A stretch of 24,234 bases of DNA, from the UHGV virus genome UHGV-0124819; one strand, written 5' to 3'. Below are positions 155-14,729 of the stretch, one piece after another. The notes beneath the pieces are model-generated. The model was given only the letters and a program-made list of their open reading frames with translations. It searched no databases and had not been told where the DNA came from. The translations under genes and the position numbers were made by a program. This DNA is from a virus. Numbering within the stretch: position 1 is the stretch's first letter; every line of letters starts with the position of its first letter.

Positions 155-1138
155 CTAATTCCTATCAGCAGGTAGAATTGCTGGGTAGAGCTTAGAGCAA
201 TCATTGCCATAGTCAGGGATAAAGTCCCATAGCCCTTTTGGCGTTTGGAAGACCTCAGGGCTTAAGCCAATCAGCATATAAACATGAACTAACAGCTCGC
301 GCAATCCAGTGACCATTTGCTTTATTTGTTTTTCATCAGAGAAAGAAGTGGTGAAGGGTTTTTCTTCAATGGAGTCAAAAAGAATAAACTCATGTTTTTC
401 ATATCGATAGTCGATCCCTAATTCTCTGCAAAGTTGGATAATATTGATTTCGAGCATTTGAAGGGAAATCACTTGGATATCATAAGAAGTCTCTTTGTTG
501 TAACAGCTTTTAATAGCTTTGTTGATATTCTTATAATAATCTTGAACTCTACCCATAAATAATGAACTTATTTCTTTGCTATAGCCTTCTTCAATAGAGG
601 ATTTTGTAAAAATATTCATGTAAAGAATATAAGGGTGAGAAATGGAAGGTTCTATATATTTTTTTCCATCATCGTGTTCGGTAAACTCTCTACTAACGAT
701 AAATGAAGGGACAGTTTTAAAAATATCGGCATAACTCTTCTGGTGGGCATAAAATGAATCAGATTTATTTTTTGCTTTTACCAGCTCTATTTGATGCTCT
801 GTCCTTGAAAGCTGCGTCTCTGTTTGAATGGTCCTGTGAATATTCTTAACTATAGCTCCAAGAGGTACTGAACTGGCTAGCAGCATTAGAGGGAATTTAC
901 TGATTTCGTAAAAGCGAGTATAGCCGTGGGCACTTAACACCGGGACCTTGCCCCACCATGCGAAAATCCCAAAATAAAAGAATGATAATACTGGTATTCC
1001 GATTGATAACCAGAATAATTTCTGTTTTATAAGGTTTTGTTCATTTAATAAATACCACTTGTATTTATATGTTAAATACAATATGTATATTAACATTACA
1101 ACATAGAACATAATGCCAATTGATGAATAAAGGGTCAT
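155..1138 (-). CDS. Hypothetical membrane-anchored protein: N-terminal 2-3 transmembrane helices plus a ~230-aa soluble domain; AT-rich cargo (moron) gene between int and att
   Basis: 327-aa ORF. Hydrophobic N-terminal segments IGIMFYVVMLIYILYLTY and LFWLSIGIPVLSFFYFGIFAWW, with a possible third, FPLMLLASSVPLGAIV. Start ATG at 1136-1138 overlaps the int stop codon in an ATGA arrangement. Composition is strongly AT-biased and Lys/Ile/Tyr/Asn-rich, unlike the neighbouring int. No recognisable catalytic motif. Confidence 0.65.
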   Translation of the reverse strand: MTLYSSIGIMFYVVMLIYILYLTYKYKWYLLNEQNLIKQKLFWLSIGIPVLSFFYFGIFAWWGKVPVLSAHGYTRFYEISKFPLMLLASSVPLGAIVKNIHRTIQTETQLSRTEHQIELVKAKNKSDSFYAHQKSYADIFKTVPSFIVSREFTEHDDGKKYIEPSISHPYILYMNIFTKSSIEEGYSKEISSLFMGRVQDYYKNINKAIKSCYNKETSYDIQVISLQMLEINIIQLCRELGIDYRYEKHEFILFDSIEEKPFTTSFSDEKQIKQMVTGLRELLVHVYMLIGLSPEVFQTPKGLWDFIPDYGNDCSKLYPAILPADRN

Positions 1139-2163
1139 GCTTTTTTCCAGTCTAATTTGTAAAGTGGATTTTTTGTTACAGCATCTTCCAAGTGATCAGG
1201 GGCAAAGTGAGCGTAAACCATCGTCATTTTTATATCAGCATGGCCCAGAATATCGCGCAGTACCAGTATATTTCCGCCGTTCATCATAAAATGGCTGGCG
1301 AATGTATGGCGCAGTACGTGGGTGCACTGGCCCTCTGGCAGTTCGATACCGGCTCGCTTTACTGCACGCTCAAAGGATTTTCTGCATGGGGTAAATAATC
1401 TCCCCCTGTTTTTAGGTAGTTCGTCATACAGTTCTTGAGATATTGGAACGGTTCGGTTTTTTTTACCTTTGGTCTTGGTATAAGTAATGCGATATTTTGA
1501 TAACTGATGCCCTTGCAGGTTTTCTGCTTCACTCCATCGGGCACCAGTTGCTAGGCATATTTTTGCAATCATCAACAGACTGGGACTCTGAGAATCAGCA
1601 CAGGCATCCAGTAGGCGTTTAATTTCTTCCGGGGTCAGGAATGCTAGTTCACCCTCAGCGATTTTAAATGTTGGCAGCCCGACGAGAGGATTTGGTGCTG
1701 ACCAGTGGCCTAGTTTTTTCAATGTGCCGAAAACCGATGATAGGTTACGTTGCTCAAGATTCACCGTGCGTGGTTTTACTGGCGACATTAGTGTGCCGTC
1801 TTCGTTACGAAGGTCACCTTTTAACCGTGCTTCGCGGTATTTCGTAAAGTCTCCGGCTGTCAGTTCTGAGGCGATGGGGTCGCCTAGACCATTACAGATA
1901 ATTCTAAGTTTCGCCATGAGGCGCTTGGGGTCTGCGAGTGTCTGACCATACAGGGAATACCAAAGCTCAATTAACTCTGATAGGCGTCGCCGATCATCCT
2001 TTTCACCCAACCACGGTTTTTTATTCACTTCTTCCATTGTGAAGCTTTCAAACGCAATGGCTTCGCCTTTCGTGGCAAATTGCTTACGCACGCGCTTGCC
2101 ATTGCGTCCATTGGGATAGCACTCACACAACCATTTTCCGTTCGGCTGTTTTCTGATGGTCAT
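1135..2163 (-). CDS. int: Tyrosine recombinase, P2/186-type phage integrase
   Basis: 342 aa. C-terminal catalytic signature ARWSEAE ... HVLRHTFASH ... LGHADIKMTMVYAH (R..H-x-x-R..Y). Position immediately downstream of cI and next to att. Confidence 0.95.
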   Translation of the reverse strand: MTIRKQPNGKWLCECYPNGRNGKRVRKQFATKGEAIAFESFTMEEVNKKPWLGEKDDRRRLSELIELWYSLYGQTLADPKRLMAKLRIICNGLGDPIASELTAGDFTKYREARLKGDLRNEDGTLMSPVKPRTVNLEQRNLSSVFGTLKKLGHWSAPNPLVGLPTFKIAEGELAFLTPEEIKRLLDACADSQSPSLLMIAKICLATGARWSEAENLQGHQLSKYRITYTKTKGKKNRTVPISQELYDELPKNRGRLFTPCRKSFERAVKRAGIELPEGQCTHVLRHTFASHFMMNGGNILVLRDILGHADIKMTMVYAHFAPDHLEDAVTKNPLYKLDWKKA

Positions 2164-2164
2164 A

Positions 2165-2797
2165 TCAAAGGCTCTTAATGATTTTCAGTGCGCGGCCTAC
2201 TACCTCAATGTCATCCAGGCCGCACTCAAACGATGAATCATCCTGATGCACTACTAATTTGTTTCCCGGGAGTCGAGTCAATTTAACAATGCTTTTTATC
2301 CCGTCGATATCGACTAACCACATACCATTTACTAGTGGTGTTTGGTTGCGATCTATTAAATAAGAATCACCAGAAGTAGTCACCAGCAGTAGGTTGCTTG
2401 AGTTTGAGGGGAGTATGCTGCTATCAATGATTGCTTTTCCAGCATCGATCAATAAACCACCGTTGAGAGTCGCCTTGTCAATTTCAGGAGATACTAGTTC
2501 AGAAAGAGGTATAACCTTGCTGGAGTTCACGGAATTGATATTTTTTTTGGGTTCAATGTTTGAACCTGGCTCCCCCTGTCCGGTGGTTAGCCACAGTAAA
2601 GAAACTCCTGTTTCCAAGGCGCACTGAATCACCCACTCTGCAGGAAAACTATCTCTTAAGTATCTGTTTGCCATGGTACTTTTTGATGCGCCTAAGTGAT
2701 CGCAAAGTTGCTGTCTGGACTTGAAATCATAGGCTGCCATTAGTCTATGGATAGCCTCTCTTCCCCCTGTATTCTCTCCAGCCTTTACCTGTATCAT
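2165..2797 (-). CDS. cI: CI-type immunity repressor
   Basis: 210 aa. N-terminal HTH-like segment KSTMANRYLRDSFPAEWVIQCALETGVSLLWLTTG. Sits divergent to the early operon, with its stop 1 nt from the int start, matching the 186 cI-int lysogenic operon layout. Confidence 0.8.
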   Translation of the reverse strand: MIQVKAGENTGGREAIHRLMAAYDFKSRQQLCDHLGASKSTMANRYLRDSFPAEWVIQCALETGVSLLWLTTGQGEPGSNIEPKKNINSVNSSKVIPLSELVSPEIDKATLNGGLLIDAGKAIIDSSILPSNSSNLLLVTTSGDSYLIDRNQTPLVNGMWLVDIDGIKSIVKLTRLPGNKLVVHQDDSSFECGLDDIEVVGRALKIIKSL

Positions 2798-4992: not shown

Positions 4993-5846
4993 GCACCATC
5001 CTGAAATGGGCGGGAAATAAAACCGCCATTATGTCCGAACTGAAAAAGCATCTTCCTGCTGGCCCGCGACTGGTTGAACCTTTCGCGGGTTCCTGTGCAG
5101 TGATGATGGAGACGGAGTACCCCAGCTATCTTGTTGCGGATATTAATCCTGATTTAATCAACCTCTATAAAAAGGTTGCTGCTGATTGTGAATCATTTAT
5201 ATCTCGCGCCAGAGTTTTATTTGAGATCGCAAACAGGGAGGTAGCTTATTACAACATAAGGCAGGAGTTTAATTACTCAACTGAAATTACTGATTTCATG
5301 AAAGCGGTATATTTCCTGTATCTCAATCGTCACGGTTACCGTGGTTTATGTCGCTATAACAAGAGCGGGCATTTCAACATTCCCTACGGTAATTATAAAA
5401 ATCCGTATTTCCCTGAAAAAGAAATTCGCGCATTTGCAGAAAAAGCCCAGCGAGCAACGTTTATCTGCGCCAGCTTTGATGAAACGCTGGCGATGTTGAA
5501 GGCGGGGGATGTGGTGTATTGCGATCCGCCGTATGACGGTACGTTTTCCGGCTATCACACTGATGGTTTCACTGAAGATGACCAGTATCACCTGGCATCC
5601 GTTCTTGAACATCGGTCATCAGAAGGACATCCGGTCATTGTTTCTAACAGTGACACATCCCTGATCCGTTCGCTGTATCGCAATTTTACTCACCACTATA
5701 TCAAGGTAAAACGCAGCATCGGTGTGGCAGCTGGCGAGGGTAAATCAGCAACAGAAATCATTGCTGTTTCCGGGCCGCGCTGCTGGTTGGGATTTGATTA
5801 TTCGCGTGGCGTGGATAGTTCTGCCGTGTACGGAGTGCGTGCATGA
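4989..5846 (+). CDS. dam: DNA N6-adenine methyltransferase (Dam-like)
   Basis: Start ATG at 4989 overlaps the TraR stop (ATGA). Motifs KWAGNK, SAM-binding EPFAGSCAV, and catalytic DPPY (CDPPYDG). Confidence 0.9.
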
Positions 5847-8257
5847 GCCATGCTGATATGAACAACTGCAGCGGCTTTAACGAGGCCGCCGCAGCATTCT
5901 CATGGAACAGCCCGAAAAAGGCTATTAACCCTTATCTGGACCCGGCGGAAGTTGCGCCGGTTTCTGCGCTTTCAAACCTGATCACTCTGTACGCTGCCGA
6001 TAACGAGCAGGAACAACTGCGCCGCGAGGCACTGAGTGATCAGGTCTGGGAGCGTTATTTCTTTAATGAATCCCGTGATCCTGTCCAACGCGAAATGGAG
6101 CAGGATAAGCTCATTAGCCGGGCAAAGCTGGCGCATGAGCAGCAGCGTTTTAATCCGGACATGGTCATACTGGCGGACGTTAAAGCCCAGCCCTCCCATA
6201 TCAGCAAGCCGCTGATGCAACGTATTGAATACTTCAGCAGCCTGGGCAGGCCAAAGGCTTATTCCCGCTATTTGCGTGAGACGATTAAGCCATGTCTGGA
6301 ACGACTGGAGCATGTACGCGACAGTCAGCTATCCACTTCTTTTCGCTTTATGGCAAGCCATGAAGGGCTGGACGGCCTGCTGATCCTGCCTGAAATGAGT
6401 CAGGATCAGGTGAAACGCCTGTCTACTCTTGTCGCTGCGCATATGAGCATGTGTCTTGATGCCGCTTGTGGTGATTTGTACGCCACCGATGATGTTAAGC
6501 CAGAAGAAATCCGCAAGACATGGGAAAAGGTGGCAGCAGAAACCCTGCGACTGGATGTCATACCGCCTGCGTTTGAGCAACTCCGCCGGAAAAGAAACCG
6601 CCGTAAACCCGTACCCTATGAACTCATTCCGGGTTCGCTGGCGCGTATGTTGTGCGCCGACTGGTGGTATCGGAAATTATGGAAGATGCGTTGCGAATGG
6701 CGGGAAGAGCAGTTGCGTGCTGTTTGCCTGGTCAGCAAAAAAGCATCTCCCTATGTCAGCTATGAAGCCGTGATGCATAAACGTGAGCAGCGCCGTAAGT
6801 CGCTGGAGTTTTTCCGTTCTCATGAACTGGTGAACGAAGACGGCGACACGCTGGATATGGAGGACGTGGTAAACGCCAGTAGTAGCAACCCGGCGCATCG
6901 CCGCAATGAGATGATGGCATGTGTTAAAGGTCTGGAGCTTATCGCGGAAATGCGCGGTGACTGCGCCGTTTTCTACACCATCACCTGTCCGTCACGTTTC
7001 CATTCCACGCTAAATAACGGCAGGCCCAACCCAACCTGGACAAATGCGACGGTAAGACAAAGCAGTGATTATCTGGTCGGCATGTTTGCTGCATTTCGTA
7101 AGGCGATGTACAAAGCCGGATTGCGCTGGTATGGCGTGCGGGTGGCTGAGCCGCATCATGACGGTACAGTTCACTGGCACCTGTTGTGTTTTATGCGCAA
7201 AAAAGATCGCCGCGCCATTACTGCTTTGTTGCGTAAGTTTGCCATCCGTGAAGACCGCGAGGAGCTGGGTAATAACACAGGACCACGCTTTAAGTCTGAG
7301 CTGATAAACCCGCGCAAAGGTACGCCAACAAGCTACATCGCGAAATACATCAGTAAGAACATTGACGGGCGTGGTCTGGCTGGCGAGATCAGCAAGGAAA
7401 CGGGTAAATCCCTGCGTGATAACGCTGAATACGTTAATGCCTGGGCGTCTCTTCATCGTGTTCAGCAATTCCGCTTCTTTGGCATTCCGGGGCGTCAGGC
7501 TTACCGTGAACTGCGATTGCTGGCTGGTCAGGCGGCAAGGCAACAGGGGGACAAAAAAGCAGGTGCGGCGGTACTGGATAACCCACGCCTTGATGCCATC
7601 CTGGCTGCTGCTGATGCTGGTTGTTTTGCCACCTACATCATGAAGCAGGGCGGCGTACTGGTTCCCCGCAAATATCACCTCATCAGAACCGCTTATGAAA
7701 TCAACGAAGAGCCGACCGCCTATGGCGATCACGGCATTCGTATTTATGGCATCTGGTCACCCATTGCAGAGGGCAAGATCTGCACTCATGCAGTGAAGTG
7801 GAAAATGGTTCGTAAGGCCGTTGACGTTCAGGAGGCGGCAGCCGACCAGGGCGCTTGCGCCCCTTGGACTCGTGGCAATAACTGTCCCCTTGCTGAAAAT
7901 TTGAACCAACAGGAGAAAGATAAATCAGCTGATGGGGACCCCAGAACGGACATTACCCGCATGGATGACAAGGTGTTGCACGATTACCTGCACAGTATGA
8001 ACAAAAAGGAGCGCCGGGAATTGGCTGCAAGGTTACGTCTGGTGAAACCGAAACGGCGTAGAGACTACAAACAGCGAATTACAGACCATCAACGACAGCA
8101 GCTCGTCTATGAACTGAAATCCAGAGGATTTGATGGCAGCGAGAAAGAGGTCGATTTACTCCTTCGCGGCGGCAGTATTCCGTCAGGAGCAGGCCTGCGT
8201 ATCTTCTATCGGAACCAGCGTTTGCAGGAAGATGATAAGTGGCGGAACCTGTATTAA
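5843..8257 (+). CDS. A: Rolling-circle replication initiation endonuclease (P2 gpA family)
   Basis: 804 aa. HUH-type motif VHWHLLCF and tandem catalytic tyrosines YIAKYISKN. Start overlaps the dam stop (ATGA). Confidence 0.9.
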
Positions 8258-8349
8258 TTACGCTGGTTAACAATTCGTGCTCTTAATAATACCAGGCATA
8301 TCAGGCTGATAAGCGTAAATAAACGTTTTACATCAGTAAGATTATTATA

Positions 8350-8369
8350 TACTGTAAATATAAACAGTG
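8350..8369 (+). promoter_or_regulatory. LexA operator (SOS box) overlapping a candidate promoter for the tum-like/DinI-like genes
   Basis: TACTGTAAATATAAACAGTG has the CTGT-N8-ACAG core (CTGT 8352-8355, ACAG 8364-8367) and is close to the consensus TACTGTATATATATACAGTA. -35-like TTTACA at 8327-8332. Confidence 0.7.
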
Positions 8370-8410
8370 GTTATACATACAGTATTGCGTGTGGTGTCAT
8401 AGGAGGAAAG

Positions 8411-8599
8411 ATGCAGGACTATTTTTTGGAGTCTTTGAAGCTCCAGCGCATTGATTTTTTTCTTAAGCTTGTAGCGGCTAGTGAGTGTAGTGATGAAGAG
8501 AAGGGGCTGGCTCTGCAGTGGGTTTCTGAATTGACTGATGAACTCATGGCAAAAATCAGAAGCCACGAATACAACCGCTCAATGGATGTCATCAACTGA
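8411..8599 (+). CDS. Hypothetical small protein in the position of the 186 tum (SOS-inducible antirepressor) region
   Basis: 62-aa ORF, ATG at 8411 with SD AGGAGG at 8401-8406. Lies directly downstream of the LexA box. Confidence 0.5.
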   Translation: MQDYFLESLKLQRIDFFLKLVAASECSDEEKGLALQWVSELTDELMAKIRSHEYNRSMDVIN

Positions 8600-8609
8600 G
8601 GTGACTTTT

Positions 8610-8843
8610 ATGTGCATTGAAATAATGATCGATAAAGAGCAGAAGATTAGCCAGTCTACCCTGGACGCCCTTGAATCCGAGCTTTACCGCAATCTGCGCC
8701 CCCTGTATCCCAAAACGGTAATCCGTATCCGTAAAGGTAGCTCTAACGGTGTGGAACTGACCGGACTGCAACTGGACGAAGAAAGAAAACAAGTGATGAA
8801 AATTATGCAGAAGGTGTGGGAAGACGACAGCTGGCTGCATTGA
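8610..8843 (+). CDS. DinI-family protein (DNA-damage-inducible protein I-like)
   Basis: 77 aa, MCIEIMIDKEQ...LDALESEL...QKVWEDDSWLH. Aligns by eye over its full length with E. coli DinI (MRIEVTIAK...IDALAGEL...QETWESADDW). SD GAGGTG upstream. Confidence 0.8.
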   Translation: MCIEIMIDKEQKISQSTLDALESELYRNLRPLYPKTVIRIRKGSSNGVELTGLQLDEERKQVMKIMQKVWEDDSWLH

Positions 8844-8897
8844 TTTTGTCAATAGACGCTTGTTTTTACTAATCAAAAAGGGTTACATATGAGTGAG

Positions 8898-8931
8898 AGG
8901 CGATGTCAATCAGATATCGCCTTGTTTTTTG
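8898..8931 (+). terminator. Intrinsic terminator after the DinI-like gene
   Basis: Stem AGGCGAT / ATCGCCT (8898-8904 / 8916-8922) followed by TGTTTTTTG. Confidence 0.55.
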
Positions 8932-8956
8932 TCAAGAAAAGAATAATAGGCTAAAA

Positions 8957-9634
8957 ATGAAAATTAATAACGTAGCGTTACCAATATCTCTTGCTGTAAT
9001 CCTAACTGGTTGCGTGCCACATGCTTCTAACCGAAATATCACTGCTATTGAAGTGGTGAAGCCTGCTATTGGGCAAAGTGCTACCGCCTACATGGGCGAT
9101 CCCATTATCACATCTGCTACTGGATTTAAAACGGACGTACTAGAACTTGGTGCGGCTAATGGTGCATTGTCTTCTATCGCTGCTGGTACATATTGCAGTG
9201 AGGGGAATGGAATTTACCGCAATTATCATAACCCTCAAGCTGTTGCGTTAAAAAATCTCTATGGGCAAATCGGTAACTATGTTGATTATGTTAGTTACGA
9301 TGCTGCAAAAAATGAGATATCACCGCCAAATGGTACTTCTTATACTGCATCAGAAATTTCTATCAAACGTGTTCCTGATGGGCTGTGTCGAGTTAGTAAC
9401 TCATTGGTTAAGACTATCGAATACAATGGAAATGCAGGCGGTGTAATGAAGTTCACCTATCGTGAATTTGCAAACGATATGGCTCGTGCAGCATTTACAA
9501 CAGATTTTTCTGTAGATTCTAAGGGAAGTGACGTTATCGCTTACAAAGGTGCCAAGTTCAAAGTGAACAAGGCTGATAACTCGTCTATTTCTTATACAAT
9601 TATTTCTGGCTTTGACAAGGCTGTCACGTTCTAG
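8957..9634 (+). CDS. Lipoprotein of unknown function (moron)
   Basis: Signal peptide MKINNVALPISLAVILTGC with lipobox LTGC. 225-aa Gly/Ser/Thr/Asn-rich mature part. AT-biased. Bracketed by terminators at 8898-8931 and 9739-9765. Confidence 0.75.
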   Translation: MKINNVALPISLAVILTGCVPHASNRNITAIEVVKPAIGQSATAYMGDPIITSATGFKTDVLELGAANGALSSIAAGTYCSEGNGIYRNYHNPQAVALKNLYGQIGNYVDYVSYDAAKNEISPPNGTSYTASEISIKRVPDGLCRVSNSLVKTIEYNGNAGGVMKFTYREFANDMARAAFTTDFSVDSKGSDVIAYKGAKFKVNKADNSSISYTIISGFDKAVTF

Positions 9635-9738
9635 GTTTCACGCTTGCTGAGTATGTTACGATTTTGCACATTCTGCATAAACGCGCATGTCTATGCTGCA
9701 TGAGATCGCATGATCGTTTGAGGATCTTTTGTGTTAAG

Positions 9739-9765
9739 GCCCGCCAGTTCTGGCGGGCTTTTGCG
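9739..9765 (+). terminator. Intrinsic terminator
   Basis: Perfect 8-bp stem GCCCGCCA / TGGCGGGC (9739-9746 / 9751-9758), loop GTTC, then TTTTGCG. Confidence 0.7.
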
Positions 9766-9807
9766 TAGATCATGCAGGTGCATGAAAACCACTACATAAA
9801 GCGGGCA

Positions 9808-9826
9808 GGCGTGGCGGGGATACGAG
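9808..9826. other. Candidate cos site (19-nt cohesive-end region)
   Basis: GGCGTGGCGGGGATACGAG begins with GGCGTGGCGGGGA, matching the first 13 nt of the 186-type cohesive end as I recall it (GGCGTGGCGGGGAAAGCAT). GC-rich element in a non-coding gap between the replication and portal gene blocks. Confidence 0.45.
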
Positions 9827-9973
9827 CGCGCGCAAGGTATAGAAACAGTCGTTTGTTTACAAACAGATACTATGATTTTCAATGTTCTTTCAAATTGTTG
9901 CTTTAAGATAGCAGGTAGATGTTTGTAGTTGTTGCGTGAACTGATAAGCTTCTACAACTATCGAGGAAAGGAT

Positions 9974-11041
9974 ATGAAGCGGCTAACTGAAGAACAAATT
10001 GAACATTCTTTGATCAGAGCAAGGAAGATTGCGAAGCGGGAGTCAAGAAAGCTTTCTGGTGGAAGACGGATGCTACAGCCCATGCGGGTATTCTCTCGTG
10101 TGAGAATACCCGCGCCTGCGTCATTGGACTTATTTAATACTAAAAATTACAAACTATTTATAGAGTTTATCACTTTAATAAGAGATTACATCAATGATGG
10201 TGAGAAAATTTTAATAGATTTCAGAAATACAAAATCTCTGAAAGCATGTGCAGTAATCGTATTGTATGCACATATTGACTTTTTACAAAGGCAAACAAAA
10301 GATAAAAATATAATTTCTATTACTACGTGCGGTTCATCCAGGGCAAATAACTGGTTTAAAATATGTGGTATTTGGGGGATTACAGGGTTTCAGCGTATAG
10401 CTGCAGATAAGCTTAATTCAATGGAAATTGTTTCCGCTGTTGCAGGCAAAACTAGAGATGATCATGAAAGTGCCGAAGCAAGACAAAAAATTAAAAATAT
10501 TCTACGTTATATAAAAGATACCATTTATGAAGGTAAGATTTCCGCTTCGGATGGTGTGAAATTATATGCAGCCTTAACTGAATCTATTAGCAATGTTGGT
10601 CTACATGCGTATTCAAATGAAGAACAGTTCTCTGAATTTATTGAGGACATTGGTAAAAGATGGTGGATATTGGCACACAAAGTCGAAGAACAACTATTTT
10701 TGATGGTGTATGATATGGGAGAAGGTATCCCAGTTACATTGGTTAAAAAAGACTTTTTCACATTTATCGCTCAGATATTTAATCCTAAGACGGATTCTGA
10801 TAAAATATTCGCGGCTGTACAGTATGGTGAGACAAGAATGAATAGTCAGAAGCATGGTAAAGGATTACCTGATATGAAAAGGTATGTTGTAGATAACCCT
10901 GAGGGGCAGTTACATATTTTTAGTGGAATGGGACGATATTCTTATGATGCTGAAAATAATGTTGAAGATAAATTTGATCTGCCATACTCCATAGGTGGAA
11001 CCCTTATTCAATGGAATGTAAGTTTGAGAGGTGCTGAATGA
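9974..11041 (+). CDS. Cassette gene 1: protein with a C-terminal GHKL-superfamily ATPase/kinase domain (RsbW/SpoIIAB-like) and an N-terminal domain of unknown function
   Basis: 355 aa from ATG 9974 (SD GAGGAAAGG). N-box-like LTESISNVGLHAY (10580-10612; compare SpoIIAB SEAVTNAIIHGY), G1-box-like YDMGEGIP (10709-10732), G2-like HGKGLPD (10853-10873). AT-rich. Confidence 0.6.
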   Translation: MKRLTEEQIEHSLIRARKIAKRESRKLSGGRRMLQPMRVFSRVRIPAPASLDLFNTKNYKLFIEFITLIRDYINDGEKILIDFRNTKSLKACAVIVLYAHIDFLQRQTKDKNIISITTCGSSRANNWFKICGIWGITGFQRIAADKLNSMEIVSAVAGKTRDDHESAEARQKIKNILRYIKDTIYEGKISASDGVKLYAALTESISNVGLHAYSNEEQFSEFIEDIGKRWWILAHKVEEQLFLMVYDMGEGIPVTLVKKDFFTFIAQIFNPKTDSDKIFAAVQYGETRMNSQKHGKGLPDMKRYVVDNPEGQLHIFSGMGRYSYDAENNVEDKFDLPYSIGGTLIQWNVSLRGAE

Positions 11042-11358
11042 AAATCAAAGAGATACATGTTGCTGAAGATTTTTCAGATGTTCCCTATGGCCGCTATGAT
11101 GAGGATGGTCCTGATAATGGACAACGTTTCCGTGAAAAGTATCTTTTGAAAGCCATCCAAGATTATGATGAGGTGCACGTGTACCTTGATGGTGCTATGG
11201 GTTATGGTTCTTCATTCTTGGAAGAGGCGTTTGGTGGACTTTATAGAACAAATAATATAGATAAAGCTATAATTAGGAAAAAATTAAAAATATTTACTGA
11301 TTTGGATTTCCTCAAGGATAGTATATGGGGATATATTTCTGATGCTAAAAAGGAGTGA
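11038..11358 (+). CDS. Cassette gene 2: small acidic protein, possibly STAS-like (anti-sigma-factor-antagonist-like, DUF4325-type)
   Basis: 106 aa. ATG overlaps the gene 1 stop (ATGA at 11038-11041). Segment VHVYLDGAMGYGSSFLEEAFGG (around 11200-11235) resembles the SpoIIAA/RsbV pattern h-h-D-x-S/G-x-h-x-h-DSSGLG. Confidence 0.5.
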   Translation: MKIKEIHVAEDFSDVPYGRYDEDGPDNGQRFREKYLLKAIQDYDEVHVYLDGAMGYGSSFLEEAFGGLYRTNNIDKAIIRKKLKIFTDLDFLKDSIWGYISDAKKE

Positions 11359-11363
11359 TGTTC

Positions 11364-11852
11364 ATGGATGAACTTCCGGTTTATCTGCGGTTATTACAAT
11401 ACCTTGCTAGTTCAGGTGTGATTGCAATTCTAACAGCCTTGATTGGTTGGGTTTTTGTTTATAGAAACTCCCGTGCGTTGCAAAAGAGGAGTGAAACATG
11501 GTCAATTGTAAAAAATGTTTCAGATAATTTAAAGGAAATTGAATCTGCATCAAGAAAGTTTTGGATACCGGGAGATTCAAAAGAAATTGATGCAATGTCA
11601 TTTCAAAATGAGATAACAGCACTTCTTGCGGAGACCGAGCGGTGGTTGAATCATCTAAAACAACGCATTAATATCGAAGGTGACTATAAACCTTTGATTG
11701 CTGATTTATTCAAAGATGCTACATCTAATATTGAAAAAGCACAGGAGTATGATAAAAGTCAAAGGACAAGAATTAGTGTATTAGTGTCAAAAAGGGCGAA
11801 AATAATTAAATCTCTAATTGATGAGTCTTATCAGAAAAAATTCTTAAAGTGA
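11364..11852 (+). CDS. Cassette gene 3: single-pass membrane protein with a C-terminal coiled-coil-like region
   Basis: Likely ATG at 11364, 9 nt after SD AAGGAG and 5 nt after the gene 2 stop. TM helix VIAILTALIGWVFVY, then a charged heptad-like Lys/Glu-rich region. AT-rich. Confidence 0.6.
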   Translation: MDELPVYLRLLQYLASSGVIAILTALIGWVFVYRNSRALQKRSETWSIVKNVSDNLKEIESASRKFWIPGDSKEIDAMSFQNEITALLAETERWLNHLKQRINIEGDYKPLIADLFKDATSNIEKAQEYDKSQRTRISVLVSKRAKIIKSLIDESYQKKFLK

Positions 11853-11862
11853 TAATTTGTTA

Positions 11863-11891
11863 CGGCACGGTAGTGCCGTAGTTTTTTTTCT
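11863..11891 (+). terminator. Intrinsic terminator closing the three-gene cassette
   Basis: Stem ACGGCAC / GTGCCGT (11863-11869 / 11874-11880), loop GGTA, then a T8 run. Confidence 0.75.
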
Positions 11892-11937
11892 TATTATGTG
11901 TTGAGCGATGGATGTCCTATTAAGTGATGTAAATGTA

Positions 11938-12963
11938 TCAGAATGAATATATTTCAAATTCTATTATTTTTTTATCAAGCCATTCATTTATCTCTCCTAA
12001 GCGTTTTTGTAATGGTATAAGTTCGTTTCGTACAAACACTTTACTTGCTTTCTCCACATCCCCAAACCCCCCAACATTATTAGGCATAATCCCCATCATC
12101 TGAGGCGGCACGCGGTGCGCTGCCATCATGTCATCCCGACTCACGTTCTTGATATTAAGAAATTCATCCTTCGCCGCGACTTCTGACAATGGGATGATCT
12201 GAAGCCCGTCCTTTTTGCCGTTAGGCGAGTACATAAACAGGTTGCGGAAGTTGCCTGGACCTTTGGCGCTTTTCATCGCGTTGCGGAGGTTGTTCACATC
12301 CTCCTGGTTTTGTGCGGCATCGGTCATGTACATGATAAAGCCCGCATGGCTGCCGTTAATGTAATACTTGCGACGGAACAGCGTGGCGGACTCGTTGAGC
12401 AGGGCTGACGGAATGGCAGAAAGATAACCGGGCAGGCCGTAGATCTCCTGGTTGATGTCCGGTTCCATCAGATGAAAGATGCTGCCTTTCGTGAACTGAT
12501 ATGGCTGCGTGGTCATACCGTATTGCACAAACCAGTAGGTATCCAGGTCTAACCCGCGTCGGGTGTATTTTGCCAGGGCAGGTTCAAGGGCGATAACTTC
12601 ACCGAAGCGGTTCGTGCGTTTCTCCAGGTAGGCGTTACCAAATACCAGATAGTCCTGCACAAAACGCGAAAAAGCCTGCTGGCTGAGCAGCGGGTGAGGG
12701 ATGTAGGTGCTGGTCAGAATGTTGCACTTTACTGCAATCGGGGAACTATGATGCACGGCAGCGCGGAAGGTGCGCGCCAGTCCGTCAAAGCTGACGGGCG
12801 GCTCATACCAGCGGTCCATCTGTACGCATTCCACATAATCCAGCAGTTCTCGGCGGTCCAGAACAGGAACGGGATCGCCGAAGCTGAATGCTTCGGCTGT
12901 AGTTTGACTTTTAAGCTGGATCTGTTTCGTCGCCGCAGTGCGGTTCTTCTTACTCTTTCCCAT
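11938..12963 (-). CDS. Q: Portal protein (P2 gpQ family)
   Basis: 341 aa, the size and position of P2 gpQ. Convergent with the cassette and immediately followed (upstream on the minus strand) by the terminase gene. Assigned by synteny and length. Confidence 0.9.
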   Translation of the reverse strand: MGKSKKNRTAATKQIQLKSQTTAEAFSFGDPVPVLDRRELLDYVECVQMDRWYEPPVSFDGLARTFRAAVHHSSPIAVKCNILTSTYIPHPLLSQQAFSRFVQDYLVFGNAYLEKRTNRFGEVIALEPALAKYTRRGLDLDTYWFVQYGMTTQPYQFTKGSIFHLMEPDINQEIYGLPGYLSAIPSALLNESATLFRRKYYINGSHAGFIMYMTDAAQNQEDVNNLRNAMKSAKGPGNFRNLFMYSPNGKKDGLQIIPLSEVAAKDEFLNIKNVSRDDMMAAHRVPPQMMGIMPNNVGGFGDVEKASKVFVRNELIPLQKRLGEINEWLDKKIIEFEIYSF

Positions 12964-14729
12964 CAAAAAATCTCCACAATATTGCTGGTATTGGCGGATT
13001 CGCCCTGCAGCGGTTCGTTAAACAGTGCGTGCATCGTTGCCCAGGCCAGATCGGCGTGGCTGGCTTCTTCGCTGCGGCTGGCTTCATAGGTCGGGCGGTT
13101 GCCACTGGCGGTGGTGGCGCGACGGATTGCCATGAATGACTGCGCAATGTCGGTGTGCCCGGCGTCAAACTCAAGACGGCGGTGGCTGATAATGTCGTAG
13201 GCCTTGAGTACCAGGGCGTTTTTAACGTTGGGGTTGTAGACAAACTCCCGGACGGCAGGAAAAAACGCTTTCACGTTCTCGTAAACCCCGTGACCAACGC
13301 CGGTTGAGTCGATGCCGATATAGGTCACGTTGTACCGTTCGGTCAGTTTTTTGATGGCGTCAGCCTGGGCGCGAAAGTCCATTCCGCGCCACTGGTGACG
13401 CTCAAGAATGCGGAACTTACCGCCCGGCACGGCTGGCGGTGCCACCACCACGCATCCGGCGCTGTCGCCGTTTTGCGTACCTTTTGCCGGGTCATAACCG
13501 ATCCACACTTCGCGCCAGCCAAACGGGCGCAGAGCCAGTGCATGAAAGTCGGTCCAGACTTCCCAGCTGTCCACCATGCACGCCTGCAGCTCGCTGAGCG
13601 GGAACACGGACGCGAGATCGTCCACGAACTCACACATCAGCAGGTTCTGGTATTCGTCCGGGCTGTATTCCATGCGTAACTGGTCGAGGTCGAACAGGTT
13701 ACATCCGCCGCGCACCGCATCTTCTACGGTGACTATCTGGCGGTATTGCCCGTCTGCGCACAGCAGGCCGGGGGCCAGATTGCTGTGGGACAGGTCGATG
13801 TCCACCTTATCGGCTTTGTTGCGCCCACGGTTGAACAGCGCACCGGACCAGAACGGATAAGCACTGTGTGTCAGACTGGATGGCGTGGAAAAATAGGTCT
13901 GTCGCCATTTCTTGTGAATAGCCATACCGGAAGCCACTTTGCGCAGCTCCTGGAATTTCGGTATCCAGAAATATTCATCCAGATACAGGTTGCCGTGATA
14001 ACTCTGGGCCGTGCGGGCATTGGTGCCGAGGAAGTAAAGCGTGGCCCCGTTGGGAAGCACCATCGGATCACCTTTCAGCTCCACCTCCACTTCTTTGGCG
14101 AAGTCGATGATGTACTGCTTAAAGACGTGGGCCTGTGCCTTGCTGGCGGAAAGGAAAATCTGGTTACGTCCGGTCAGCAGAGCGTCAATCAGGGCTTCAC
14201 GGGCAAAATAGAAGGTCGCGCCGATCTGGCGTGACTTCAACAGGTTGCGGATGCGGTTGGTTTTTCCGGCTTCCCACCAGTGGCGCTGGTAGTTGAACAT
14301 GGAGGAATGGAAGATTTCCTCCAGCTTTTCAATCTGTTCATCGGTGAAAACGTTCTTTTCCGGCTGACGACGCGGGCCTTTGTTGCGGTTGGCGACGTTA
14401 GGGTTTAAGTCGGCTTCGTTGCCGCCATTGTTAAACTTGCCGATCCGCGCGTGGCGCTCAGACTGGCGCGCCAGCAGGTCAATCTCTTTGAAATCTTTCC
14501 CTTCTTTGTGCTCCTTCATAATGAGCTGGCAGTAGCGGGCGGCGGTGGTGAGCTGCATCTGATCCAGCGGCCCATAGTCACCCCACTTGTCGCGTTTTTT
14601 CCAGCTGTGAACGGTTGCAACTTTCTCGCCCAGCATTTCAGCAATGCGGGCTACGCGGTATCCCTGAAAGTACAGCAGCATGGCCTGCCGACGGGGATCG
14701 AGATCTGCGGGTGTCAGTGTGGTGTTCAT
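12963..14729 (-). CDS. P: Terminase large (ATPase) subunit (P2 gpP family)
   Basis: 588 aa, the size and position of P2 gpP, in the Q-P operon divergent from O. Confidence 0.95.
   Translation of the reverse strand: MNTTLTPADLDPRRQAMLLYFQGYRVARIAEMLGEKVATVHSWKKRDKWGDYGPLDQMQLTTAARYCQLIMKEHKEGKDFKEIDLLARQSERHARIGKFNNGGNEADLNPNVANRNKGPRRQPEKNVFTDEQIEKLEEIFHSSMFNYQRHWWEAGKTNRIRNLLKSRQIGATFYFAREALIDALLTGRNQIFLSASKAQAHVFKQYIIDFAKEVEVELKGDPMVLPNGATLYFLGTNARTAQSYHGNLYLDEYFWIPKFQELRKVASGMAIHKKWRQTYFSTPSSLTHSAYPFWSGALFNRGRNKADKVDIDLSHSNLAPGLLCADGQYRQIVTVEDAVRGGCNLFDLDQLRMEYSPDEYQNLLMCEFVDDLASVFPLSELQACMVDSWEVWTDFHALALRPFGWREVWIGYDPAKGTQNGDSAGCVVVAPPAVPGGKFRILERHQWRGMDFRAQADAIKKLTERYNVTYIGIDSTGVGHGVYENVKAFFPAVREFVYNPNVKNALVLKAYDIISHRRLEFDAGHTDIAQSFMAIRRATTASGNRPTYEASRSEEASHADLAWATMHALFNEPLQGESANTSNIVEIF

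What the first reader, a model, noticed from the sequence alone, without database searches (positions are those of the whole stretch)
8957..9634. Stand-alone lipoprotein moron flanked by two intrinsic terminators in the A-to-cos interval
This ORF has a clear lipoprotein signal peptide (lipobox LTGC) and an AT-biased, Gly/Ser/Thr/Asn-rich mature domain of about 225 aa. It is insulated by terminators on both sides, at 8898-8931 and 9739-9765. It sits between the replication/SOS genes and cos, where P2 carries its exclusion genes tin and old. A lysogen-expressed surface lipoprotein there is a candidate superinfection-exclusion or receptor-masking factor.
Basis: partly seen in the sequence, partly recalled or inferred. 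Interest (0 to 1): 0.5.

Follow-up and report, generated by a model that had tools for sequence, protein, structure and literature searches.

The report
Prophage accessory lipoprotein gene beside cos
This is a real add-on gene at the right end of a Fels-2/P2-type prophage that encodes an outer-membrane-anchored lipoprotein from a large, uncharacterised family; its function is untested, and blocking other phages is only the leading guess.

Summary
ORF 8957-9634 encodes a 225-aa lipoprotein precursor (lipobox LTGC, mature 207 aa). A terminator hairpin lies upstream (8897-8931) and another downstream (9737-9767). cos is at 9808-9826.

It is accessory, not core. Closely related phages join the DinI/Tum stop codon to the terminator-cos block through only 83 bp. 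Only 50 of 1,281 E. coli genomes with these flanks carry the gene. GC is 41% against 53-54% in core genes, and dN/dS is 0.05-0.15.

The upstream hairpin belongs to the cassette and shows two compensatory stem changes. The downstream terminator belongs to the phage backbone.

The function is untested. Envelope-level exclusion of other phages is the leading guess (about 0.35). Masking of the phage's own receptor is unlikely. The protein is 99-100% identical in phages whose tail-fibre tips are unrelated or strongly diverged. Capsule-less lysogens of DuoHS, which carries this gene, are still killed at high doses of DuoHS, and capsule loss raises DuoHS adsorption.

No clear promoter was found in this variant.

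The parts
8352..8843 (+). Upstream context, not part of the cassette. It holds a perfect LexA box (8352-8367, CTGTAAATATAAACAG), orf62 (8411-8599, phrog_698) and the DinI/Tum-like gene (8610-8843). This is the SOS-inducible operon whose transcripts run towards the lipoprotein gene.
   Evidence: LexA box, 0 mismatches; DinI, PF06183, E = 1e-22; annotation in Fels-2 and E. coli
8844..9684 (.). The accessory cassette, defined by comparison with empty-site phages. These 841 bp replace an unrelated 83-bp spacer in phages that lack the gene. GC is 39.8%.
   Evidence: vB_EcoM-813R9 and Kp4845-2 match window 8300-8841 and 9685-9835 only; the same in E. coli genomes; GC
8859..8896 (+). Conserved 5' segment of the cassette. 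It carries a weak promoter-like pair, TTGTTT (8860-8865) and TTACAT/TACATA (8883-8889), 17-18 nt apart. It is kept in the 88%- and 82%-identity variants although their spacers differ. Promoter function is not shown.
   Evidence: alignment A3; read by eye, and the consensus scan did not call it
8897..8931 (+). Cassette-borne intrinsic-terminator-like hairpin: 11-bp stem, 5-nt loop, U6 tract. It sits between the DinI/Tum operon and the lipoprotein ORF.
   Evidence: -16.9 kcal/mol, z -3.8; 98.9% of cells paired in 8 variants, 2 pairs with compensatory double changes, 10 of 500 shuffles as good
8957..9634 (+). Lipoprotein gene. The signal peptide is 8957-9010, the lipidated Cys19 codon is 9011-9013, and the mature protein is 207 aa. 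AF2 predicts an all-beta fold after a roughly 10-residue disordered tether. Cys80 and Cys144 are invariant. The AGG Shine-Dalgarno element is at 8948-8950.
   Evidence: phrog_1353 E = 3e-105
9685..9835 (+). Conserved phage backbone block shared with phages that lack the gene. It contains the right-end terminator (9737-9767) and cos (9808-9826). The hypervariable cos-to-portal slot begins after 9835.
   Evidence: block conserved in empty-site phages; cos identical to SEN8's annotated cos; 14 of 19 to P2 cosL; downstream slot variable

Best explanation
Identity (confidence about 0.9). This is a self-contained, horizontally acquired accessory cassette in the last gene slot before cosR of a Fels-2/186-type P2-like prophage. 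It encodes a Sec/SPase II-exported, Lol-sorted lipoprotein. The protein has a short flexible tether and a compact 190-residue all-beta domain, probably with one disulfide. It belongs to a large uncharacterised envelope-lipoprotein family that phages, plasmid-like elements and islands have captured repeatedly.

Expression (inferred, about 0.5). In this variant, transcripts reach the gene mainly by passing the cassette's own hairpin terminator. They would start either at the LexA-controlled tum promoter or at a weak conserved promoter-like element just upstream of the hairpin. This would give low expression in the lysogen and a modest rise on SOS induction.

Mechanism (inferred, about 0.35). Anchored in the outer membrane, the protein binds a conserved envelope component. 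This changes how the lysogen's envelope handles incoming foreign DNA-delivery machines, that is, it excludes other phages at adsorption or injection. It does not mask the prophage's own, strain-specific receptor.

Shown: the gene, the signal and lipobox, accessory status, purifying selection, and mobility between element types.
Inferred: localisation, expression route, binding partner and phenotype.

The confidence value given for this explanation (0.35) is that of the mechanism, its least certain part.
For: Gene and export signal:
- Lipobox LTGC, with the G-C invariant in the family.
- 134 of 164 full-length relatives match a lipobox pattern, and none of those has Asp at +2.
- Residues 1-27 are disordered, followed by 17 beta strands; pLDDT is 80.
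- Cys80 and Cys144 are invariant, and 90 of 134 relatives have exactly two further Cys.

Accessory status:
- The empty site is mapped to the base.
- 50 of 1,281 flank-bearing E. coli genomes carry the gene.
- Other cargos occupy the same slot: DUF6236, DUF8087 and other hypothetical proteins.
- GC is 41% against 53-54% in core genes.

Functional protein: dN/dS is 0.05-0.15.

Independent of the neighbouring cassette: at least 30 different cos-to-portal cargos lie next to the same lipoprotein in 56 loci.

Mobility, and the same terminator-bounded unit elsewhere:
- Acinetobacter Vieuvirus phages and Moraxella Mcat28, inside tail-gene clusters.
- A Providencia prophage, directly after the tape-measure gene with terminators on both sides.
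- Serine-recombinase islands and a prophage that also hold OLD-family or AbiC-like genes.
- MobA/RepL plasmid-like contigs.

These positions are classic sites for exclusion genes. P2 tin/old occupy the gpA-gpQ locus. HK97 gp15 lies next to the tape-measure gene.

Expression: in a Fels-2 lysogen (protein 99.1% identical), all three genes of STM2726-2728 gave signal and rose 2.6- to 14.8-fold after an SOS-inducing mutagen. A sister variant in the same slot has a clear TTGATG-17-TATGAT promoter instead of the hairpin.
Against: - Family members also occur as stand-alone chromosomal genes among housekeeping genes in Pseudoalteromonas, Oceanicoccus and Acinetobacter. The ancestral role may therefore be ordinary envelope physiology.
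- Strong purifying selection and near-identity across three host genera are not what an arms-race surface protein usually shows.
- No convincing sigma-70 promoter exists between the hairpin and the ATG. The only scan hit would start transcription inside the ORF.
- The microarray result does not say which gene rose 2.6-fold, and it could reflect prophage replication.
- No phenotype data exist for this gene. Searches for its accessions and locus tags found no paper. Rousset et al. list it only as 'hypothetical'.
Confidence: 0.35

Rival explanations
1. Host-fitness (lysogenic conversion) factor unrelated to phages. The outer-membrane lipoprotein would alter envelope robustness, serum or complement resistance, adhesion or biofilm formation, as lambda Bor/Iss and TraT do.
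For: The export, anchoring and moron evidence is the same as for the best explanation. Relatives sit on plasmid-like contigs beside H-NS and EAL genes and beside a fimbrial operon. Stand-alone chromosomal relatives lie in non-mobile contexts. Strong purifying selection and identity across Klebsiella, E. coli and Salmonella suit a conserved host target.
Against: There are no Pfam hits, even at E up to 1, so no match to the curated models for TraT or Bor or to any adhesin or serum-resistance family. The gene is rare among E. coli prophages (50 of 1,281). Its recurrent position in phage accessory and defence slots points towards phage-phage conflict.
Confidence: 0.25
2. Lytic-phase helper switched on with SOS induction. 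Read-through from the LexA-controlled tum promoter would make the lipoprotein early in induction, to protect progeny or time envelope events, as T5 Llp protects progeny from receptors in cell debris.
For: The gene lies directly downstream of the LexA-box operon, on the same strand, separated only by a hairpin. The STM2726-2728 genes all rose after SOS induction. In empty-site phages the same transcript ends at the cos-proximal terminator.
Against: The cassette carries a selected terminator hairpin precisely between tum and the gene, which reduces coupling. The sister variant has its own constitutive-type promoter. Homologues in other elements have no SOS context. Capsule loss raises DuoHS adsorption and entraps dispersing virions, and capsule-less DuoHS lysogens are still cleared at high phage doses. 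The lipoprotein does not track tail-fibre type.
Confidence: 0.12
3. Periplasmic immunity or inhibitor protein. It would neutralise an enzyme or toxin that acts in the envelope, such as a lysozyme or phage tail muralytic domain, a colicin or a T6SS effector.
For: It is a compact, disulfide-bearing, membrane-tethered beta domain with invariant polar residues: Tyr168 and Glu170 invariant, Arg169 and Tyr196-Lys197-Gly198-Ala199 at 90% or more, in distant members. In three siphoviruses the gene lies next to the tape-measure gene.
Against: No toxin or effector gene accompanies it in any context examined. No similarity exists to MliC, PliC, Ivy or known immunity families.
Confidence: 0.08
4. It is a component of the adjacent three-gene cassette (HATPase-like, STAS-like DUF4325 and a membrane protein, 9974-11852) and works with it.
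For: The only support is proximity in this window and in E. coli NCTC11121.
Against: cos and a conserved terminator lie between them. The same lipoprotein lies next to at least 30 different downstream cargos, or none. Conversely, other phages have cargo beyond cos while lacking the lipoprotein.
Confidence: 0.02
5. It is a virion, assembly or lysis protein, for example an o-spanin-like lipoprotein.
For: It is a lipoprotein, as o-spanins are.
Against: Near-identical phages lack it. The LysB/LysC spanin genes lie among the lysis and tail genes in the relatives Fels-2 and DuoHS, far from this slot. The PHROG category is 'unknown', and there are no structural matches. It also occurs on plasmid-like contigs and in chromosomes.
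Confidence: 0.02

Closest known systems
Cor (phi80, N15, HK022, T1) and Llp (T5) superinfection-exclusion lipoproteins
   Same: They are phage-encoded outer-membrane lipoproteins carried as accessory genes, often embedded in or next to tail genes. They act in the envelope without affecting virion production (own knowledge; Cor is summarised in PMC3594210).
   Different: No sequence or fold similarity was found. Cor and Llp are small (roughly 60-80 aa, own knowledge), against 207 aa here. They block the phage's own receptor, FhuA. This protein does not co-vary with tail-fibre type, and DuoHS lysogens remain exposed to DuoHS attack when uncapsulated.
HK97 gp15, the archetypal moron (superinfection exclusion)
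   Same: It is extra DNA relative to sister phages, has foreign GC and is a terminator-bounded unit. It has bacterial homologues outside prophages. In the Acinetobacter, Moraxella and Providencia phages the lipoprotein occupies the same kind of site, beside the tape-measure gene.
   Different: gp15 is a small inner-membrane protein of the YebO family, not a lipoprotein, and is unrelated in sequence. gp15 has a demonstrated promoter and phenotype; this gene has neither.
P2 tin and old, and the P2 cos-proximal defence hotspot (Rousset et al. 2022)
   Same: It occupies the same locus between gpA and gpQ next to cos. The protein (WP_000700647) appears in their hotspot tables as 'hypothetical'.
   Different: tin and old are cytoplasmic abortive-infection-type proteins (own knowledge). 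This one is exported. It sits left of cos in its own slot, which varies independently of the hypervariable slot right of cos. There is no PADLOC hit.
Lambda Bor/Iss and plasmid TraT
   Same: They are outer-membrane lipoproteins encoded by mobile elements and expressed in the carrier cell. TraT has a similar size (own knowledge).
   Different: No Pfam family was matched at E up to 1, and there is no fold match.
phrog_1353 (unknown function)
   Same: The match is full-length, E = 3e-105, covering 1-223 of 225 aa against 230 profile positions. The window gene is a member.
   Different: The PHROG carries no function. The family is far wider than phages: 2,434 50%-identity representatives at E up to 1e-3.

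Membership tests
Moron (definition as summarised in PMC3594210, citing Juhala et al. 2000) | Extra DNA relative to otherwise collinear related phages | tested here: met
   Window 8842-9684 replaces 83 bp in vB_EcoM-813R9 and Kp4845-2. Only 50 of 1,281 flank-bearing E. coli genomes have it.
Moron (definition as summarised in PMC3594210, citing Juhala et al. 2000) | [quoted passage not shown] | tested here: met
   ORF GC is 40.9% (GC3 31.9%) against 52.8% (GC3 56.6%) for gpA and 54.5% for portal plus terminase.
Moron (definition as summarised in PMC3594210, citing Juhala et al. 2000) | Own terminator | tested here: inconclusive
   A strong terminator follows the gene (9737-9767), but it is backbone sequence that is also present without the cassette. 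The cassette's own hairpin is upstream of the gene. Homologues in the Moraxella and Providencia phages do have a terminator right after the stop codon. In Acinetobacter Ab1656-2 it follows the next small ORF.
Moron (definition as summarised in PMC3594210, citing Juhala et al. 2000) | Own promoter | tested here: inconclusive
   The scan finds only TTGTCA-18-AAAAAT, which overlaps the ATG. A weak conserved TTGTTT-17/18-TTACAT(A) element lies upstream of the hairpin. The sister variant has TTGATG-17-TATGAT 45 nt upstream of its ATG.
Moron (definition as summarised in PMC3594210, citing Juhala et al. 2000) | Expressed from the repressed prophage | not testable with these tools
   Indirect only. 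The orthologue STM2726 belongs to a three-gene set with 0% missing signals in a Fels-2 lysogen. All three genes rose 2.6- to 14.8-fold on SOS induction.
Bacterial lipoprotein (SPase II / Lgt substrate) | N-terminal signal peptide ending in a lipobox [LVI][ASTVI][GAS]C | tested here: met
   MKINNVALPISLAVILTG|C. G18-C19 is invariant and L16 is at least 90% conserved in 22 homologues. 134 of 164 wider relatives match a lipobox pattern.
Bacterial lipoprotein (SPase II / Lgt substrate) | Lipid modification and outer-membrane sorting (no Asp at +2) | not testable with these tools
   The +2 residue is Val. None of the 134 lipobox-bearing relatives has Asp at +2. Lipidation and localisation need experiments.
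Cor / Llp receptor-blocking exclusion lipoproteins | Sequence or fold relationship to Cor or Llp | tested here: not met
   The only PHROG matches are phrog_1353 and a weak phrog_6360, both of unknown function. There are no Pfam hits and no structural match.
Cor / Llp receptor-blocking exclusion lipoproteins | Blocks the receptor used by the encoding phage | tested here: inconclusive
   Indirect evidence against. The protein is 99-100% identical in phages whose gpH C-termini are unrelated or strongly diverged. Capsule-less DuoHS lysogens still show clearing at the highest DuoHS doses, which the authors attribute to lysis from without. The gene itself was never tested.
TraT / Bor-Iss serum-resistance lipoproteins | Match to the curated Pfam models of these families | tested here: not met
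   hmmscan against Pfam-A at E up to 1 returned 0 families.
Known anti-phage defence systems (PADLOC-DB 2.0) | HMM match to a component of a catalogued system | tested here: not met
   0 families at E up to 0.01.
phrog_1353 | Full-length HMM match | tested here: met
   E = 3.1e-105, residues 1-223 against profile positions 1-230 of 230.

The most novel reading that the evidence does not exclude
The protein founds a new, structurally unassigned family of envelope-level exclusion lipoproteins. Chromosomal outer-membrane lipoproteins of this family would have been captured repeatedly by unrelated temperate phages (the P2-like cos slot; tape-measure-adjacent sites in siphoviruses of Acinetobacter, Moraxella and Providencia) and by plasmid-like elements. 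The protein would block entry of heterologous phages or other DNA-delivery machines by binding an envelope component conserved across Enterobacterales. In this variant, expression would be gated by a terminator or attenuator hairpin coupled to the SOS-inducible tum operon.
Probability: 0.25. Interest if true: 0.6.

Novelty: new member of a known kind. Interest (0 to 1): 0.35.

Why it matters
Moron-encoded envelope lipoproteins are a known kind of thing, so the existence of this one is not surprising.

The useful points are these:
- The family is large: at least 1,597 clusters at 90% identity, or 2,434 representatives at 50% identity. It has no Pfam, NCBIfam or PADLOC model and no structural relative.
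- Very different mobile elements have captured it independently. It is strongly conserved, which implies a real and portable function in the cell envelope.
- It splits the published P2 'cos hotspot' into two independently varying slots, one on each side of cos.
- The identical gene sits in two genetically tractable prophages, DuoHS in E. coli HS and Fels-2 in S. Typhimurium LT2. A clean deletion and expression test is therefore immediately possible.

If it proves to be an exclusion factor, it would add a new protein family to a short list (Cor, Llp, Ltp, SieA, gp15). It would also matter for phage therapy against Klebsiella, where this prophage type is common in clinical clones.

Tried and rejected
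- Function by homology: Pfam (E up to 1), NCBIfam and PADLOC gave nothing for the protein. Ten distant family members also gave no credible Pfam hit.
- PDB sequence profile search: only noise, E about 1.
- Source names: every member examined is called 'hypothetical protein' or 'lipoprotein'.
- Rfam: no match for a leader RNA around the hairpin.
- Adjacent paralogue or partner gene: none found in the enterobacterial contexts. The small ORFs that follow the Acinetobacter copies are unrelated to each other.
- 243-aa annotation from ATG 8903: rejected as the conserved start. Because it is in frame here, either start would give the same mature protein.
- Promoter between hairpin and ATG: the only scan hit would start transcription inside the ORF.
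The GTDB scan with A1 returned one locus.
- Literature: no paper mentions STM2726 functionally, nor EcHS_A0921, WP_000700647 or phrog_1353.
- Supplementary expression tables of the microarray paper are not held.
Full report
**1. What the window is**

The window is a Fels-2/186-type P2-like (Peduoviridae) prophage. Its gene order is:
- integrase (1135-2163, minus strand)
- CI repressor (2165-2797, minus strand)
- Cox-like excisionase and CII
- Dam methylase
- gpA replication endonuclease (5843-8257)
- a small SOS operon
- the finding
- cos
- a three-gene cassette
- portal gpQ (11938-12966, minus strand) and terminase gpP

The 8850-9800 stretch is 98.6-98.8% identical to Fels-2, to Salmonella phage RE2010 and to many Klebsiella pneumoniae prophages.

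**2.

ORF 8957-9634 encodes 225 aa beginning MKINNVALPISLAVILTG|C.
- In 22 homologues the G-C of the lipobox is invariant and the Leu at position -3 is at least 90% conserved.
- PGAP calls the same start codon in E. coli NCTC11121 and HS.
- A purine-rich AGG(G) element 6-9 nt upstream of the ATG is retained in diverged copies.
- Fels-2 annotates a longer 243-aa form from ATG 8903. That upstream frame stops before the ATG in Buttiauxella and is out of frame in the 88% variant, so it is not the conserved start. In this window it is in frame, so either start would yield the same mature protein.
- The mature protein is 207 aa and 22.0 kDa, with 32.9% Gly+Ser+Thr+Asn.
- Pairwise dN/dS is 0.05-0.15, so it is a protein under strong purifying selection.

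Both hairpins fold as described.
- 8897-8923 is followed by GUUUUUUGU (-16.9 kcal/mol, z -3.8).
- 9737-9761 is followed by UUUUG (-21.8 kcal/mol, z -3.9).

**3. Anatomy of the neighbourhood**

- A perfect LexA box (8352-8367) sits in front of orf62 (8411-8599) and the DinI/Tum-like gene (8610-8843).
- cos is at 9808-9826, sequence GGCGTGGCGGGGATACGAG. It is identical to the annotated cos of Salmonella phage SEN8 and matches P2 cosL at 14 of 19 positions.
- The lipoprotein gene is therefore the last gene before the right cohesive end. Its stop codon lies 173 bp from the cos cleavage site.

**4. Accessory, and where the cassette ends**

Escherichia phage vB_EcoM-813R9 and Klebsiella phage Kp4845-2 match window 8300-8841 and 9685-9835 only. 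An unrelated 83-bp spacer lies between these two matches. The cassette is therefore about 8844-9684.

Two consequences follow.
- The downstream terminator and cos form a conserved backbone block (9685-9835) that is present whether or not the gene is there. In empty-site phages this terminator ends the tum transcript.
- The upstream hairpin came with the cassette. It is retained in the 82% (Buttiauxella) and 88% variants. In 8 distinct sequences 98.9% of cells pair, and two stem positions show compensatory double changes (C-G to U-A and G-C to U-A). Only 10 of 500 shuffles scored as well. With eight sequences this support is modest.

Frequency and alternatives:
- Among 5,426 complete E. coli genomes, 1,281 contain the flanks but only 50 contain the gene.
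- The same slot elsewhere holds nothing, a DUF6236 protein, a DUF8087 protein or other hypothetical proteins.
- GC is 40.9% (GC3 31.9%) against 52.8-54.5% in core genes.
- 'Universally conserved as core' is thus refuted, and 'moron-like' is supported.

**5. Independence from the next cassette**

The slot to the right of cos (9836-11937 here) is hypervariable. Among 56 loci that carry the lipoprotein I found at least 30 unrelated cargos, ranging from about 180 bp to 3.4 kb. In the phages and prophages examined directly it holds a retron-type reverse transcriptase, a TIR/SEFIR protein or an uncharacterised ORF. The lipoprotein is not part of those systems. The published P2 'cos hotspot' (gpA to gpQ) is really two independently varying slots, one on each side of cos.

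**6. The protein family**

Close relatives form only 27 clusters, all in Enterobacterales. A profile search, however, finds 2,434 representatives at 50% identity (1,256 at E up to 1e-10). A second search finds 1,597 clusters at 90% identity. Every named member is called 'hypothetical' or 'lipoprotein'. No Pfam, NCBIfam or PADLOC model matches. The only family assignment is phrog_1353, of unknown function.

Features of the family:
- 134 of 164 full-length members match a lipobox pattern, and none of those has Asp at +2.
- 90 of the 134 have exactly two further cysteines.
- Cys80 and Cys144 are invariant among close relatives.

Structure prediction:
- AlphaFold2 with 22 sequences gives mean pLDDT 80.3 and pTM 0.60.
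- Residues 1-27 are disordered and are followed by 17 beta strands.
- There is therefore no support for a virion structural role.

**7. Where else the gene lives**

- At 82% identity: the same slot in a Buttiauxella P2-like prophage.
- At 79-80%: the same slot or a P2 remnant, but with a different 5' region that has a clear TTGATG-17-TATGAT promoter and no hairpin.
- At 55-61%: serine-recombinase islands and a lambdoid-terminase prophage that also hold OLD-family or AbiC-like genes, and MobA/RepL plasmid-like contigs.
- At 24-28%: Acinetobacter Vieuvirus phages, Moraxella phage Mcat28 and a Providencia prophage. In these it lies inside the tail-gene cluster, beside the tape-measure gene in Acinetobacter and Providencia. 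The Acinetobacter and Providencia units have scan-called terminators on both sides, the Moraxella unit one after the stop codon, and promoter-like sites lie just upstream in Acinetobacter and Moraxella.
- Stand-alone chromosomal genes among housekeeping genes in Acinetobacter, Pseudoalteromonas and Oceanicoccus.

The picture is of an envelope lipoprotein of bacterial origin that mobile elements have captured repeatedly as an independent unit. The same is reported for HK97 gp15 and other morons.

**8. Expression**

In this variant only 25 nt separate the U-tract from the ATG. The sole scan hit there (TTGTCA-18-AAAAAT) would start transcription inside the ORF.

The candidate routes are:
- a weak, conserved TTGTTT-17/18-TTACAT(A) element just upstream of the hairpin
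- read-through from the LexA-controlled tum promoter

Either way, transcripts must pass the hairpin.

The only experimental data I found concern the Fels-2 orthologue, whose protein is 99.1% identical. In a Fels-2 lysogen treated with the SOS-inducing mutagen MX, all three genes of STM2726-STM2727-STM2728 gave usable signal. All three rose significantly, with fold changes between 2.6 and 14.8, and the 14.8 belongs to STM2727/tum. This fits a leaky terminator. However, the paper does not state which gene rose 2.6-fold, and prophage replication could contribute. No Rfam family matches the leader.

**9. Function**

Nothing is known experimentally. No paper mentions the gene's identifiers. Rousset et al. 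list WP_000700647 merely as 'hypothetical' in P2 hotspot arrangements. The DuoHS papers label the prophage's accessory regions 'morons' but do not test this gene.

Two indirect results narrow the options.
- Fels-2, DuoHS and Klebsiella 4LV2017 carry 99-100% identical lipoproteins. Their gpH tail fibres, in contrast, keep high identity only over the N-terminal 158-259 residues and are unrelated or strongly diverged beyond that. The protein therefore does not track the phage's receptor specificity.
- E. coli HS carries the gene at 99.9% nt identity in DuoHS. Capsule loss raises DuoHS adsorption. On capsule-less DuoHS lysogens plaques are abolished but zones of clearing persist at the highest phage doses, which the authors attribute to lysis from without.

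Masking of the phage's own receptor is therefore unlikely.

My ranking of the remaining options:

| Explanation | Probability |
|---|---|
| Envelope-level exclusion of other phages or DNA-delivery machines | about 0.35 |
| Host-fitness conversion factor | about 0.25 |
| SOS-coupled lytic-phase helper | about 0.12 |
| Periplasmic immunity or inhibitor protein | about 0.08 |
| Part of the neighbouring cassette | about 0.02 |
| Virion or lysis protein | about 0.02 |

The remainder is unassigned. Strong conservation across three host genera suggests that the partner is a conserved envelope component rather than O-antigen or capsule.

**10. Comparison with known systems, and verdict**

By function and architecture the closest analogues are Cor and Llp, HK97 gp15, P2 tin/old (by locus), Bor/Iss and TraT. 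The gene is a member of none of these families, because every homology test failed. It is a member of phrog_1353.

It meets the moron criteria of extra DNA and foreign GC. The criteria 'own promoter' and 'own terminator' are inconclusive for this variant, although they are met in sister and distant copies.

Novelty: a new member of a known kind, namely a prophage accessory envelope lipoprotein, from an uncharacterised family.

Interest is moderate to low (0.35). The finding is not surprising to a specialist, but it is a clean candidate that can be tested at once in two model prophages.

Noticed in passing
window 9974-11852 (ORFs 9929/9974-11041, 11038-11358, 11355-11852): A three-gene, very AT-rich (35.6% GC) cassette lies between cos and the portal gene. 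It consists of a weak HATPase_c-like 355-370 aa protein, a STAS-like DUF4325 protein and a 165-aa protein with a weak holin-like N-terminal match (phrog_20). PADLOC has no hit. Rousset et al. 2022 list 'HATPase_c | DUF4325' as an arrangement in their hotspot tables. It may be an unvalidated partner-switching-type defence system. The same cassette is in E. coli NCTC11121, where an IS1 sits beside it.
   Followed up: partly
window 8842-9684 slot; loci L016-L019: The DinI-to-cos slot is itself a small hotspot. In other E. coli prophages it holds a DUF6236 protein, a DUF8087 protein (opposite strand), a 72-aa plus 280-aa pair, a 141-aa ORF, or nothing. It varies independently of the slot on the other side of cos.
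   Followed up: partly
window 8895-8956: An ATG (8903) sits inside the left arm of the terminator hairpin, preceded by GAGAGG only 2 nt upstream. It opens a short upstream frame that crosses the hairpin. The frame is in frame with the lipoprotein here, stops at TAG in Buttiauxella, and is out of frame in the 88% variant. It could be a translation-dependent attenuator, or merely a by-product of stem conservation.
   Followed up: partly
L064 5927-5955, L066, L023 (79-80% identity variants): A sister allele of the cassette in the same P2 slot has an entirely different 5' region. It carries a good sigma-70 promoter (TTGATG-17-TATGAT) about 45 nt before the ATG and has no terminator hairpin. The two alleles may therefore be regulated differently.
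   Followed up: yes
L003 5874-7009 (Acinetobacter phage Ab1656-2): In the Acinetobacter phage the lipoprotein homologue is followed, within the same terminator-bounded unit, by an 87-aa hydrophobic, probably membrane-spanning protein. The unit lies just after a DUF4258/HTH pair (possibly toxin-antitoxin) and just before the tape-measure gene. The small ORF after the chromosomal Acinetobacter copy (L086) is unrelated.
   Followed up: partly
window 9685-9790: Several (G)CATG(A) motifs surround the backbone terminator just left of cos: 9689-9693, 9701-9706, 9711-9716, 9773-9776 and 9780-9785. The stretch up to about 9716 is conserved in phages with and without the cassette. They may be terminase or host-factor binding sites of the cos region.
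   Followed up: no
window 155-1138 (-): A 327-aa ORF lies next to the integrase at the attachment-site end of the prophage. It has no Pfam or PADLOC match and belongs to phrog_17460 (unknown function). It is probably another accessory gene.
   Followed up: partly
window 9627-9599 (-): The best-scoring promoter-like site in the region (GTGACA-17-AATAAT, 10 of 12) points antisense from the 3' end of the lipoprotein gene. The overall count of such sites equals the chance expectation, so it may mean nothing.
   Followed up: no
window 8352-8367: A perfect LexA box (CTGTAAATATAAACAG) overlaps the promoter region of the orf62-DinI/Tum operon. This is consistent with 186-type SOS induction through an antirepressor.
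   Followed up: partly
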